From the NCBI GenBank assembly GCA_963594125.1, contig CAVBCV010000002.1:42211-106210 (forward strand): a stretch of DNA of 64,000 nt, written 5' to 3'. The DNA is from Lachnospiraceae bacterium. Lineage in GTDB: Bacteria > Pseudomonadota > Alphaproteobacteria > RF32 > CAG-239. Numbering within the stretch: position 1 is the stretch's first letter; every line of letters begins with the position of its first letter. Position numbers and translations under genes: made by a program. Below, piece after piece: positions 59,035 through 59,832 of this stretch. A model generated the notes under the pieces. The model searched no databases. It saw only the letters and a list, made by a program, of their open reading frames with translations, and was not told the origin of the DNA.

Positions 59035-59832
59035 ATGTATACATATTTTAACCGCTTTTTATACCACTTTCTGTCACACTCCGATGAAAAACCACAGCCC
59101 ACCCCTATATTGTCATATTCGGGCTTGACCCGAATATCCAGGTGGAACAAATTTGCTACTTGGTTTGACCTGGACACTCCGGTCAAGCCGGAGTGTGACA
59201 CTATGGGGACGGACGCCGCCACCTGCCGTGGACGCAGCATGGTTGAGATGTTAGGGGTATTAGCAATCATAGGCGTTTTAAGCGTCGGGGCGATTGCAGG
59301 ATATAGCAAAGCTATGATGAAGTATAAGCTCAATAAGCAGACCGAACAGCTTAGTCAGCTAATTAGCGCTATAATGCAATATCGTCCACAGTTGGATCGT
59401 AGCGGCACCAAATTTGAGACTGATTTAGTACCTGTTCTAAAAAAACTAAATGAAATTCCTCAAGAAATGATTAAAGATGATTCTGTCTTTAGTTATGATA
59501 TTTTTAATAACGCCATAGAAATTATCACCTATAAAAGCACATATTCATATGCTGCTTTGATATATGTTCTTGATTTTGACAATTCAAACAGTATGACTAT
59601 TTGCCACAATCTTATTAACTTTATGAAAGAAAATCGTGATAATTTAGTTTTAGTTCAAACATGGGCAAGAACCTCATCAGAACCAAACACAGAATATGCC
59701 GGAGATGCTTATTGTTCTTTTGAATATTATCAAAAAAACAAAGCCTGTCTTAAATATCTTGATTTAGAATTGGCTGATAAAATCTGCCGCGAGGCAGGTG
59801 AATATAACGATTATTTTGTACTTATTTTATAG
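59035..59832 (+). CDS. type IV pilin-like protein, paralog 3 (long N-terminal extension)
   Basis: MYTYFNRFLYHFLSHSDE...(about 60 aa)...CRG|RSMVEMLGVLAIIGVLSVGAIAGYSKAMMKYKLNKQTEQL. Mature part homologous to paralogs 1 and 2. Four conserved Cys. An alternative internal start (ATG at about 59203, MGTDAATCRG|RS) is possible. Confidence 0.65.
   Translation: MYTYFNRFLYHFLSHSDEKPQPTPILSYSGLTRISRWNKFATWFDLDTPVKPECDTMGTDAATCRGRSMVEMLGVLAIIGVLSVGAIAGYSKAMMKYKLNKQTEQLSQLISAIMQYRPQLDRSGTKFETDLVPVLKKLNEIPQEMIKDDSVFSYDIFNNAIEIITYKSTYSYAALIYVLDFDNSNSMTICHNLINFMKENRDNLVLVQTWARTSSEPNTEYAGDAYCSFEYYQKNKACLKYLDLELADKICREAGEYNDYFVLIL
59045..59229 (+). mobile_element. RPE-like palindromic insertion, in-frame in the pilin 5' region (copy B)
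   Basis: About 185 nt relative to paralog 1. Hairpins attcggg-cttga-cccgaat, ccaggtggaac...ttgacctgg and cactccgg-tcaagc-cggagtg. An outer repeat tcacactccg...cggagtgtga is also present. Homologous to copy A with compensatory stem changes. Confidence 0.45.

What the first reader, a model, noticed from the sequence alone, without database searches (positions are those of the whole stretch)
59045..59229. Second copy of the palindromic insertion in pilin paralog 3 shows compensatory stem changes
The about 185-nt insert in paralog 3 is homologous to that in paralog 2 at the DNA and peptide level (SRWGKFANLVDLDHRVKPDGD versus SRWNKFATWFDLDTPVKPECD). Its stems have co-varied: ccatcggg...cccgatgg became cactccgg...ccggagtg, and ccaggtggggg...acctgg became ccaggtggaac...acctgg with the loop changed. 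The hairpin attcggg-cttga-cccgaat is extra. Covariation that preserves pairing indicates selection on secondary structure in RNA, or on cruciform DNA, rather than on the encoded peptide. Both inserts also preserve the frame.
Basis: seen in the sequence. Interest (0 to 1): 0.7.

Follow-up and report, generated by a model that had tools for sequence, protein, structure and literature searches.

The report
REP palindrome pair inside pilin leader
The "insert" in the pilin gene is a pair of known bacterial palindromic repeats (CGTC-tagged REPs) sitting in frame in the part of the protein that is cut off. The family is known; the unusual point is that in this gut bacterial lineage I found these repeats only in pilin leader peptides.

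Summary
Paralog 3 (ATG 59035) and paralog 2 (ATG 21821) carry homologous in-frame palindromic inserts between codon 3 and the prepilin cleavage site G|RSMVEM. Paralog 1 (ATG 11419) is the empty site.

Each insert has an 88-nt core: hairpin, spacer hairpin, inverted hairpin. Between the two copies, 7 stem positions differ and all 7 are compensated. One detail is wrong.

The units are (C/T)GTC tag, 9-bp stem starting A-T, loop CTTGA, tail CCA. That matches CGTC-tagged REPs, family CGTC-3, as a tags-outside (HH) heterodimer (Di Nocera et al. 2013). A context-free scan found at least 119 loci across many phyla.

Covariation supports the three local hairpins and not one long REPIN-like hairpin. The stems are recurrent sequence types that are swapped and flipped between copies. 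They are not one hairpin drifting.

In this gut alphaproteobacterial lineage, all 33 units in 234 kb lie in pilin leaders. All 20 REP-bearing leaders examined are in frame. Presence or absence varies between near-identical pilins.

This is a new member of a known kind in an unusual niche. Its function is unproven.

The parts
58939..59034 (+). 5' cassette shared by all three pilin paralogs. It is promoter-like and ends in a 46-nt inverted repeat (58989-59034) that abuts the start codon.
   Evidence: Repeat family D7 and inverted repeat I2. Alignment. The same cassette occurs in related contigs.
59035..59232 (+). Prepilin leader of paralog 3: 66 codons, M1 to G66. Cleavage is predicted after G66, before RSMVEM.
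   Evidence: ORF 59035-59832. Paralog 1 uses the same ATG with a 6-residue leader. TIGR02532 prepilin N-terminal domain matches residues 68-87 at 15.1 bits, below the 16.3 cut-off.
59044..59072 (+). Non-palindromic left flank of the insert, encoding YFNRFLYHFL. It is conserved among alleles that carry the insert.
59073..59111 (+). Decayed REP unit plus linker, a 39-nt module. The GTC tag and left arm ACACTCCGA are intact, the loop and right arm are lost, and the 13-nt linker is CCACCCCTATATT. This module is absent from paralog 2.
   Evidence: Alignment gap. Intact versions of the same module occur in L070 and L036, and decayed versions in L002, L105 and L123.
59111..59140 (+). REP unit 1: tag TGTC, stem ATATTCGGG / CCCGAATAT, loop CTTGA (59124-59128), tail CCA.
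59138..59173 (+). Structured spacer of the dimer, closed by CCAGGT/ACCTGG.
   Evidence: Its orientation was compared across copies.
59171..59200 (-). REP unit 2, inverted. Stem ACACTCCGG / CCGGAGTGT, loop TCAAG (59183-59187) on the + strand, tag GACA on the + strand, which reads TGTC on the - strand.
59200..59229 (+). Right tail of the insert, encoding TMGTDAATCR. Its first 13 nt mirror the left linker. It contains an internal ATG (59203) preceded by GGAG within the arm of unit 2.
   Evidence: The tail recurs in homologues.
59233..59832 (+). Mature pilin-like protein of paralog 3: a conserved N-terminal helix and a variable C-terminal domain.
21858..21947 (+). The copy in paralog 2. Unit 1: tag CGTC, stem ACACTCCGA, loop CTTGA at 21871. 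Spacer 21885-21920. Unit 2: stem ACCATCGGG, loop TCAAG at 21930, tag GACA.
   Evidence: (D9).
11419..11442 (+). Empty site in paralog 1: the same ATG and a 6-residue leader, MYTQSG|RS.

Best explanation
The insert is a tags-outside (HH) heterodimer of CGTC-tagged repetitive extragenic palindromes of family CGTC-3, plus a decayed extra unit. It lies in frame inside the cleavable leader peptide of a type IV pilin-like gene.

Shown:
- The unit anatomy matches the family definition.
- Nearly the same 31-nt unit is dispersed in many bacteria.
- The local 9-bp hairpins, and not a long inter-unit hairpin, are what is conserved.
- The stems fall into recurrent sequence types that occur on either side of the dimer.
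- The whole dimer occurs in both orientations at exactly the same codon position.
- The reading frame is always kept.
- In this gut alphaproteobacterial lineage the units were found only in pilin leaders.
- Near-identical mature pilins occur with or without the insert.

Inferred:
- The dimer entered the leader of one pilin gene. The leader tolerates it because the prepilin peptidase removes that segment.
- Since then it has spread and been reshuffled among paralogues by duplication, gene conversion and in-place inversion. The shared 5' cassette and the conserved N-terminal helix coding region supply the homology for this. Independent transposition into each gene is not needed.
- The 'compensatory' differences between paralog 2 and paralog 3 reflect exchange of whole REP stem types.
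- Hairpin perfection is maintained by whatever maintains REPs in general: recognition as single-stranded DNA or RNA hairpins, and/or arm-to-arm template-switch correction.
- Any effect on the host gene is secondary. The likeliest effects are a long leader and a highly structured 5' coding region that dampens or alters expression of those paralogues.
For: Anatomy: (C/T)GTC tag, 9-bp stem beginning A-T, 5-nt loop CTTGA, tail CCA, tags outside, 36-nt structured spacer.

Family definition in PMC3733652: CGTC tag (also TGTC), 9-bp stems in families 3 and 4, 5-nt loops, CCA tails, mostly HH dimers, heterodimers predominating in CGTC-3, structured spacers, intragenic copies known, no dedicated transposase. 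The paper's list of intragenic CGTC-3 dimers in R. palustris gives peptides VIAGLDPAIH...DARVKPAHD. These fit a CTTGA/TCAAG loop as here, GLD from a GGN-CTT-GAC reading and VK from GTC-AAG, though the DNA itself was not seen.

Context-free scan GTCANNNTCNGNCTTGANCNGANNNTCCAGG (21 fixed bases; my estimate is about 0.3 chance hits):
- At least 119 loci, in Inquilinus, Martelella, Rhizobium, Kiloniellaceae, gut MAGs, and also Nitrospira, Dehalococcoidia, CPR and WOR-3.
- 130 of 140 units have perfect 9-bp stems, spread over 20 distinct stem sequences, although 5 of the 9 pairs were left free by the pattern.

Covariation on 16 distinct pilin-leader cores:
- 99.2% of cells paired.
- 10 of 18 unit-stem pairs changed on both sides.
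- 51 double-change cells versus 15.4 +/- 3.3 in shuffles (0 of 500 shuffles reach the observed value).
- Slid controls give 24-43% paired.

Long-hairpin alternative: covariation is below every one of 500 shuffles.

Orientation: the spacer is forward in 10 copies, inverted in 4 and chimeric in 2. There are no homodimers among the 16. Hybrid stems occur in L123 and L187 and L026.

Frame:
- All 20 distinct REP-bearing leader DNAs are multiples of 3 and stop-free (one search listed 22 leaders; 2 of them carry no REP unit).
- Loop 1 lies at nt 50 or 89 from the ATG in 17 of the 18 leaders that include the start codon and a left unit, the second loop lies 59 nt after the first in all 17 leaders with both units of the dimer, and an optional third at +39 from the second.

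Confinement:
- 31 of 33 units lie within 330 nt upstream of a pilin mature start in 234 kb of lineage DNA. The other 2 are leaders cut off by contig ends.
- An exhaustive search of 1.84 billion proteins with the dimer peptide gave 21 true hits. All are N-terminal leaders of this family.

Polymorphism:
- 90%-identity clusters mix 6-residue and 37-88-residue leaders.
- P0144 (short leader) and P0045 (REP leader) sit at one syntenic locus that is 95% identical from the mature start onward, but their upstream flanks differ.

An unbiased metagenome sample of pilin N-termini gave 7 REP and 15 short leaders in this lineage, and 0 REP leaders among 118 sites of other lineages.
Against: - REPs are by definition dispersed and mostly extragenic. 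Here no dispersed copy was seen, so this lineage fails that criterion and 'REP' describes ancestry and structure more than behaviour.
- No full genome of the lineage was scanned. Apart from the 64-kb window, the lineage DNA was fetched through REP or pilin matches, so confinement is biased by how it was sampled.
- The stems of the central dimer stay perfect while flanking units decay. A passive hitch-hiker would be expected to decay as well, so some active maintenance or function is needed and remains unidentified.
- No transposase, nuclease or binding factor is known for CGTC REPs.
- Translation from the upstream ATG is inferred from frame conservation. It has not been observed.
Confidence: 0.75

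Rival explanations
1. The hairpins are a cis-acting RNA structure in the pilin mRNA, selected to control translation or stability of particular pilin paralogues. For example, they might slow ribosomes, or hide the GGAG before the internal ATG at 59203. Their REP ancestry would then be incidental.
For: - The leader RNA is very stable: -74.9 kcal/mol, z = -6.0.
- The central dimer stays perfectly paired while its spacer and the flanking units diverge.
- All 4 imperfect stem cells are G-U or U-G on the sense strand.
- PMC3733652 argues that many REPs act as RNA.
Against: - Both strands fold equally well.
- The dimer works in either orientation.
- The 4 wobble cells come from only 2 hybrid stems, so the sense-strand bias is not significant.
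- No Rfam family matches.
- Paralog 2 has no internal ATG.
- The same units sit in many unrelated contexts in other bacteria.
Confidence: 0.2
2. The dimer is a DNA-level device co-opted for pilin variation. Hairpin or cruciform extrusion at the boundary between the shared 5' cassette and the variable gene body stalls replication or draws nucleases. This seeds gene conversion, inversion or cassette exchange among pilin paralogues.
For: - The element lies exactly between the conserved cassette and the conserved N-terminal helix coding region.
- The family is very large and diverse: more than 7,600 clusters.
- The leader and cassette are swapped at a syntenic locus.
- Dimers are flipped in place and stems are hybrid.
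- Head-to-head leader-dimer-antisense-leader ORFs exist.
- PMC3733652 notes that REP dimers can form cruciforms that destabilise genomes.
Against: - Short-leader paralogues lack the dimer yet share the same cassette and diversity. The dimer is therefore not required for exchange.
- No rates were measured.
- The head-to-head contigs may be assembly chimeras at palindromes.
Confidence: 0.15
3. The compensatory pattern is produced by mutation rather than selection. Intramolecular template switching in quasi-palindromes copies one arm from the other, so a change in one arm is either erased or mirrored in one step.
For: - 100% of unit-stem cells are paired, with 10 of 18 pairs showing double changes and only 4 wobbles.
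- Spacers are inverted and chimeric, as template switching predicts.
- The mechanism itself is established knowledge (quasipalindrome correction); I recall it and did not test it here.
Against: - Flanking units in the same leaders have decayed rather than been corrected.
- The tag, loop and tail are conserved across phyla, and they are unpaired, so arm copying cannot maintain them.
Confidence: 0.3
4. An active miniature transposon (MITE or REPIN) inserted independently into each pilin leader, mobilised by a transposase encoded elsewhere in the genome.
For: - Presence or absence varies among near-identical pilins.
- Both orientations occur.
- REPINs are mobilised by RAYTs in other bacteria.
Against: - Position and phase relative to the ATG fall into just two registers (first loop at nt 50 or 89) in 17 of the 18 leaders that include the start codon and a left unit.
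- No target duplication is visible. The short alleles carry 6 nt (CAATCG or GAAAAT) that the long alleles lack.
- No copies occur outside pilin leaders.
- No transposase was found among 40 window ORFs scanned against Pfam.
- CGTC REPs have no known transposase.
- Pairing between the two units, which defines a REPIN, is not conserved.
Confidence: 0.07
5. The encoded peptide is the functional part, for example a pro-domain or secretion signal, and the palindromy is incidental.
For: The frame is strictly conserved and the SYSGLTRIS...DTPIKSECD motifs recur.
Against: - Flipped dimers encode unrelated peptides at the same place.
- The same mature pilin works with a 6-residue leader.
- Peptide conservation follows from DNA pairing.
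- Unit types that would create a stop codon are merely excluded from one side. ATTATCGGG gives TAA as a left unit, and it is seen 0 of 16 times on the left versus 5 of 16 on the right.
Confidence: 0.03

Closest known systems
CGTC-tagged REPs, family CGTC-3 (Di Nocera, De Gregorio and Rocco 2013, PMC3733652). Hosts listed there include Rhodopseudomonas palustris, Agrobacterium tumefaciens and Sinorhizobium meliloti.
   Same: - CGTC/TGTC tag, 9-bp stem starting A-T, 5-nt loop and CCA tail.
- The loop appears to be the same CTTGA, as far as can be inferred from the published peptides GLDP and RVKP.
- Tags-outside dimers with a structured spacer of 20-100 bp.
- Heterodimers preferred.
- Occasional in-frame intragenic copies, some at N-termini.
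- No linked transposase.
   Different: - The published families are dispersed and mostly intergenic. Here every unit found lies in the leader peptide of one multigene pilin family.
- The spacer is a lineage-specific sequence.
- The stem types (ATATTCGGG, ACACTCCGR, ACCATCGGG, ATTATCGGG) are AT-richer than the common ATCCTCGGG type.
Rickettsia palindromic elements (RPE-1, and RPE-4 and RPE-6, which the same paper equates with CGTC-4 and CGTC-1)
   Same: Palindromic repeats of Alphaproteobacteria inserted in frame in protein-coding genes, including N-termini. They are tolerated because they fall in permissive protein segments.
   Different: - RPEs are scattered over many unrelated genes.
- They belong to different CGTC families, or in the case of RPE-1 to a longer unrelated element.
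- No direct sequence comparison was run here.
REPIN-RAYT systems (Bertels and Rainey 2011)
   Same: Two inverted REPs separated by a spacer. Compensatory changes have been taken there as evidence for hairpin constraint.
   Different: - REPINs carry GTAG tags.
- They fold as one long hairpin between the two REPs, and they are tied to a single-copy RAYT gene.
- Here inter-unit pairing is not conserved, the tag is CGTC, and no RAYT was seen in the window.
Neisseria dRS3 repeats (CGTC-1 according to PMC3733652)
   Same: They belong to the same CGTC superfamily. From my own memory, RS repeats were first described in gonococcal pilE/pilS loci, so there is a precedent for such palindromes next to variable pilin cassettes.
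   Different: dRS3 has an 8-bp stem and a 4-nt loop, lies between genes, and serves as a phage integration site. It is not translated as part of a leader.
E. coli BIMEs (REP dimers)
   Same: Inverted REP pairs with defined spacers that act on mRNA stability and bind host DNA proteins.
   Different: They belong to the GTAG superfamily, are extragenic and mostly lie 3' of genes.

Membership tests
CGTC-tagged REP superfamily, family CGTC-3 | Unpaired terminal tag CGTC (TGTC and CCTC variants allowed) at one end | tested here: met
   CGTC at 21858-21861 and TGTC at 59111-59114. GACA (TGTC on the other strand) at 21944-21947 and 59197-59200.
CGTC-tagged REP superfamily, family CGTC-3 | 9-bp stem with complementary A-T at the first positions, and a 5-nt loop | tested here: met
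   All four window units have perfect 9-bp stems starting A...T, with loop CTTGA or TCAAG. The second stem position is T or C. The R. palustris CGTC-3 peptides GLDP and RVKP fit the same loop, though the published DNA consensus was not seen.
CGTC-tagged REP superfamily, family CGTC-3 | Short unpaired tail fitting CCA | tested here: met
   CCA at 59138-59140 and 21885-21887, and TGG on the inverted unit.
CGTC-tagged REP superfamily, family CGTC-3 | Mostly HH dimers (tags outside), heterodimers, spacer of 20-100 bp that is often structured | tested here: met
   Tags are outside. The spacer is a 36-nt hairpin. None of 16 cores is a homodimer.
CGTC-tagged REP superfamily, family CGTC-3 | Many copies spread through the genome, mostly between genes | tested here: not met
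   All 33 units in 234 kb of lineage DNA lie in pilin leaders, including all 4 in the 64-kb window. No complete genome was available, so this is provisional. In other genera the same unit is dispersed.
CGTC-tagged REP superfamily, family CGTC-3 | Match to the published consensus (Figure 2 of PMC3733652) | not testable with these tools
   Figures are not held. Only the text description and the supplementary peptide list could be compared.
REPIN-RAYT | The two inverted REPs pair with each other into one long hairpin that is conserved | tested here: not met
   82% of cells are paired, but the covariation score (0.042) is below all 500 shuffles (mean 0.083).
REPIN-RAYT | GTAG tag and a cognate RAYT (Y1 transposase) gene flanked by the REPs | tested here: not met
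   The tag is CGTC or TGTC. No transposase family was found among 40 window ORFs scanned against Pfam. The rest of the genome was not seen.
MITE | Terminal inverted repeats plus a target-site duplication, at varied insertion sites | tested here: not met
   No duplication is seen at the junctions, and the short alleles hold 6 nt that the long alleles lack. The insertion register takes only two values (first loop at nt 50 or 89) in 17 of the 18 leaders that include the start codon and a left unit.
Rickettsia palindromic elements | Palindromic repeat inserted in frame in coding sequence | tested here: met
   All 20 REP-bearing leaders are in frame and stop-free.
Rickettsia palindromic elements | Sequence identity with an RPE family | not tested
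   No RPE sequences were compared. The paper assigns RPE-4 and RPE-6 to CGTC-4 and CGTC-1, not to CGTC-3.
Type IV prepilin (class III signal peptide) | Leader ending in G, E at +5, and a hydrophobic N-terminal helix | tested here: inconclusive
   G|RSMVEMLGVLAIIGVLSVG is present. TIGR02532 scores 15.1-15.2 bits against a 16.3 cut-off. TcpA matches at E = 0.006. Pfam finds nothing. Sources name homologues as PilE, PulG or T2SS protein. Paralog 3 lies just downstream of a type IVb pilus operon.
Any Rfam RNA family | Covariance-model match | tested here: not met
   No hit at gathering threshold in the window or in 7 loci from other taxa. Only chance-level hits at E up to 10.

The most novel reading that the evidence does not exclude
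In this gut alphaproteobacterial lineage a CGTC-3 REP dimer may have been captured by a large, variable family of pilin genes. It would be maintained there as a working part of pilin variation. That part could be a structure-forming DNA element that seeds cassette exchange or inversion at the junction of the shared promoter cassette and the gene body. Alternatively it could be a translational gate that decides which paralogues are expressed. Either would be the first REP subfamily confined to, and co-evolving with, a signal peptide.
Probability: 0.2. Interest if true: 0.75.

Novelty: new member of a known kind. Interest (0 to 1): 0.42.

Why it matters
- It shows that an apparent private structured RNA with covariation is a copy of a widespread palindromic repeat. 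This is a useful caution for covariation-based motif hunting.
- If confinement to pilin leaders holds in complete genomes, it gives a clean natural system for asking what keeps CGTC REP hairpins perfect when no transposase is known. Thousands of alleles are available in human-gut metagenomes.
- The same system could test whether such palindromes drive recombination or expression differences in a variable surface-protein family.
- The near-identity of the unit across many phyla sharpens the open question of how CGTC REPs are propagated.

Tried and rejected
- Rfam: no family at gathering threshold in the window or in 7 foreign loci, and only chance-level hits at E up to 10.
- Exact-protein contig look-up for paralog 3: not on record.
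- Full-text search for the hairpin sequence: 0 papers. A search for pilin, leader and palindromic element found nothing relevant.
- One long REPIN-like hairpin: rejected, because covariation is below all shuffles.
- Target-site duplication: none seen.
- Transposase in the window: none among 40 ORFs scanned.
- RNA versus DNA constraint from sense-strand G-U excess: only 4 wobble cells from 2 hybrid stems, too few to decide.
- Promoter and terminator scan around the element: nothing above chance.
- Functional peptide: rejected, because flipped dimers encode unrelated peptides.
- Three large proteins hit by the dimer peptide (P0180, P0181, P0188) are unrelated repeat proteins and were set aside.
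- I did not classify the copies in other genera as intergenic or intragenic. High G+C makes ORF-based calls unreliable, so I rely on the paper for that point.
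Full report
**Observation**

The window (43.7% G+C) holds three paralogous pilin-like genes. They share a near-identical 5' cassette and the same start codon.
- Paralog 1 (ATG 11419) has a 6-residue leader, MYTQSG, before the predicted prepilin cleavage site G|RSMVEMLGVLAIIG.
- Paralog 2 (ATG 21821) has 150 nt between the ATG and the mature ATGGTG.
- Paralog 3 (ATG 59035) has 204 nt.

It lies inside the leader peptide. The quoted peptides and stem sequences are correct.

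One statement is wrong. The hairpin attcggg-cttga-cccgaat is not extra. It sits at the position of paralog 2's first hairpin, acactccga-cttga-tcggagtgt. Paralog 3's real extras are a 39-nt decayed unit plus linker (59073-59111) and a longer right tail.

**Anatomy**

Each insert has an 88-nt core (59112-59199 and 21859-21946) with this layout:
- GTC, a 9-bp stem, loop CTTGA, the return stem;
- CCAGGT, 24 nt, ACCTGG;
- a 9-bp stem, loop TCAAG, the return stem, GAC.

Both strands fold into the same three adjacent hairpins as single-stranded DNA, with z = -6.5 to -7.2.

Between paralogs 2 and 3, the first hairpin differs at 4 of 9 stem positions and the third at 3 of 9. Every change is mirrored on the other arm.

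**Identity**

I searched one genome per species with a pattern for a single unit plus its tail: GTCANNNTCNGNCTTGANCNGANNNTCCAGG. It has 21 fixed bases, and I estimate about 0.3 chance matches in that collection.

- Many are in Inquilinus, Martelella, Rhizobium and relatives, and Kiloniellaceae.
- Some are in gut Alphaproteobacteria MAGs.
- Others are in Nitrospira, Thermodesulfovibrionales, Dehalococcoidia, candidate phyla radiation bacteria, WOR-3, Omnitrophota and more.

A typical copy, from Inquilinus, is GTCATCCTCGGGCTTGACCCGAGGATCCAGG, then a spacer hairpin, then CCTGGATTGCCGGGTCAAGCCCGGCAATGAC. This is the same architecture as in the window.

Of 140 units, 130 have perfectly complementary 9-bp stems, spread over 20 distinct stem sequences, even though the pattern left 5 of the 9 pairs free.

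This matches the CGTC-tagged REP superfamily of Di Nocera, De Gregorio and Rocco (PMC3733652):
- a terminal CGTC or TGTC tag;
- 9-bp stems in families 3 and 4, starting with A-T;
- 5-nt loops and a CCA tail;
- mostly Alphaproteobacteria;
- mostly dimers with the tags outside (HH);
- heterodimers predominating in CGTC-3, with structured spacers;
- known intragenic copies, and no dedicated transposase.

Their supplementary list gives R. palustris CGTC-3 dimers inside genes that encode VIAGLDPAIH...DARVKPAHD. Those peptides fit the same CTTGA/TCAAG loop, although the DNA itself was not available to me. I therefore assign the window element to CGTC-3. Rfam has no family for it.

**Which structure is conserved**

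I aligned 16 distinct pilin-leader cores, 88 columns without gaps.

For the three-hairpin structure:
- 99.2% of cells are paired.
- 10 of the 18 unit-stem pairs changed on both sides.
- There are 51 double-change cells against 15.4 +/- 3.3 in shuffles (0 of 500 shuffles reach this).
- Controls with the partners slid by 1-3 columns give 24-43% pairing.

The alternative, in which unit 1 pairs with unit 2 in one long hairpin, has less covariation than every one of 500 shuffles. The local REP hairpins are what is kept. No core is a homodimer.

**What the 'compensation' is**

The stems fall into recurrent types:
- ATATTCGGG;
- ACACTCCGA and ACACTCCGG;
- ACCATCGGG;
- ATTATCGGG;
- ACTCTCCGA;
- ATACTCCGA.

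These types occur in many loci and on either side of the dimer. Paralog 2 carries ACACTCCGA on the left and ACCATCGGG on the right. Paralog 3 carries ATATTCGGG on the left and ACACTCCGG on the right.

The spacer is forward in 10 cores, inverted in 4 and chimeric in 2. Whole dimers have therefore been flipped at the same site. L016 has the same two unit types as L105 in swapped positions, with the spacer inverted.

Stems with arms from two different types exist in L123 and L187 and in L026. This points to exchange within the loop.

The difference between paralogs 2 and 3 is thus mainly an exchange of ready-made types. Only the A-T versus G-C pair that separates ACACTCCGA from ACACTCCGG looks like a simple compensated step.

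**Distribution**

A protein search with paralog 3 returned more than 7,600 clusters. Most come from human-gut assemblies of uncultured Alphaproteobacteria. Most of the best hits carry leaders built from the same modules.

Clusters at 90% identity mix 6-residue leaders with leaders of 37-88 residues.

P0144 (leader MKSENG) and P0045 (75-residue REP leader) lie at one syntenic locus, followed by YacG, RNase G, Maf, DksA and a PilS-like gene. The two loci are 95% identical from the mature start onward, but their upstream neighbours differ. The cassette and leader have therefore been exchanged by recombination.

A metagenome scan for the mature N-terminus alone gave 140 sites outside the window:
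- 15 short and 7 REP leaders in the lineage with the MKS/MYT start;
- no REP leaders among 118 sites of other pilin lineages.

In 234 kb of lineage DNA, 31 of 33 units lie just upstream of a pilin mature start. The other two are leaders cut by contig ends. An exhaustive search of 1.84 billion representative proteins with the 31-residue dimer peptide found 21 true hits. All are N-terminal leaders of this family.

Two caveats apply. Apart from the window, this DNA was fetched through REP or pilin matches. No complete genome was examined.

**Reading frame**

All 20 distinct REP-bearing leader DNAs are multiples of three and free of stop codons (one search lists 22 leaders, 2 of which carry no REP unit).
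- The first loop lies at nt 50 or 89 from the ATG in 17 of the 18 leaders that include the start codon and a left unit (nt 77 in L016).
- The second lies 59 nt after the first in all 17 leaders that hold both units of the dimer.
- An optional third lies 39 nt after the second.

The tails differ by 3, 12, 18 or more nt. The type ATTATCGGG, which would create TAA as a left unit in this frame, is seen only on the right (0 of 16 versus 5 of 16 cores).

Translation from the upstream ATG therefore seems to matter, although it has not been observed. Because flipped dimers encode unrelated peptides, the peptide itself is not the conserved object.

**Context**

Paralog 3 follows a type IVb pilus operon: TcpQ-like, secretin, PilO, ATPase, platform protein, and a bundlin/PilS-like pilin. 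No transposase was found among 40 window ORFs.

The pilin assignment rests on several lines:
- the G|RSMVE motif;
- sub-threshold TIGR02532 hits (15.1-15.2 bits against a 16.3 cut-off);
- a weak TcpA match (E = 0.006);
- names given by sources.

**Mechanism**

Best-supported reading: a CGTC-3 REP dimer resides in a segment that is removed by the prepilin peptidase. It has spread and been reshuffled among paralogues by duplication, gene conversion and in-place inversion. The shared cassette and the conserved helix-coding region supply the homology.

What keeps the central hairpins perfect while flanking units decay is unknown. Candidates are selection on an mRNA structure, selection on a DNA structure used in pilin variation, or arm-to-arm template-switch correction. 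The present data cannot separate these.

**Novelty**

The repeat family, its dimers, its heterodimer preference and its occasional in-frame copies are all published. I did not find the following described:
- a subfamily confined to the leader peptides of one large pilin family;
- in-frame copies in both orientations;
- presence or absence polymorphism across thousands of gut metagenome alleles.

I rate this a new member of a known kind, of moderate interest.

Noticed in passing
window 11323-11418, 21725-21820, 58939-59034; L120 about 1900-1995: A portable 5' cassette (ATACAACTTATGCACAGCACGGACTCGTAAATATTGCAAAAAAAAAACGCGAGCTAAAAT, followed by an inverted repeat with 19-bp arms that ends at the ATG) precedes all three pilin paralogues. 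In a related contig it also precedes a Cys-rich 275-residue non-pilin gene. The right arm of the inverted repeat holds the likely Shine-Dalgarno sequence GAGAGGA.
   Followed up: partly
window 21459-21724: A 267-nt insert lies upstream of paralog 2. It is flanked by a direct duplication of ATACAACTTATGCACAGCA (21436-21458 and 21725-21745) and has imperfect inverted ends rich in GGGG/CCCC. A similar sequence lies next to the cassette in L120. It may be a second, unrelated small mobile element.
   Followed up: no
L113 (Rickettsiales-labelled MAG), reverse strand about 3264-3330: A single CGTC-3 unit (TGTC-ATTGTCGGG-CTTGA-CCCGACAAT-CCAGG) lies about 20 nt upstream of the ATG of a homologous pilin (MKHELG|RSLIEMVGVLA). 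A REP therefore sits next to, but outside, a pilin leader in another lineage.
   Followed up: partly
proteins P0182, P0186, P0189: Short ORFs read sense leader, REP dimer, then the antisense of a leader (…CDGLWCKKRLKFDFII). Two 5' cassettes are thus joined head to head at the dimer. This is either a real REP-mediated inversion or an assembly chimera at the palindrome.
   Followed up: no
loci L001-L119: Almost the same 31-nt CGTC-3 unit occurs in MAGs labelled as Nitrospira, Thermodesulfovibrionales, Dehalococcoidia, Patescibacteria/CPR, WOR-3, Omnitrophota, Marinimicrobia and Phycisphaerae, as well as in many Alphaproteobacteria. This is wider than the 5 phyla reported in 2013. Binning contamination was not excluded.
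   Followed up: no
window 23564-31937 (- strand): Two giant ORFs (1435 and 1371 residues) are built from 51-nt-periodic repeats. The one ORF scanned (27822-31934, 1371 residues) matches Pfam beta-flower, DUF3659 and RHS repeat families. They lie next to type IV secretion genes (VirB8, CagX/VirB9, VirB4 at 31950-45562).
   Followed up: partly
window 59028-59333 (- strand): The antisense strand of the paralog 3 leader is also an open frame of 101 codons. This is a by-product of the palindromic modules and a likely source of spurious gene calls.
   Followed up: no
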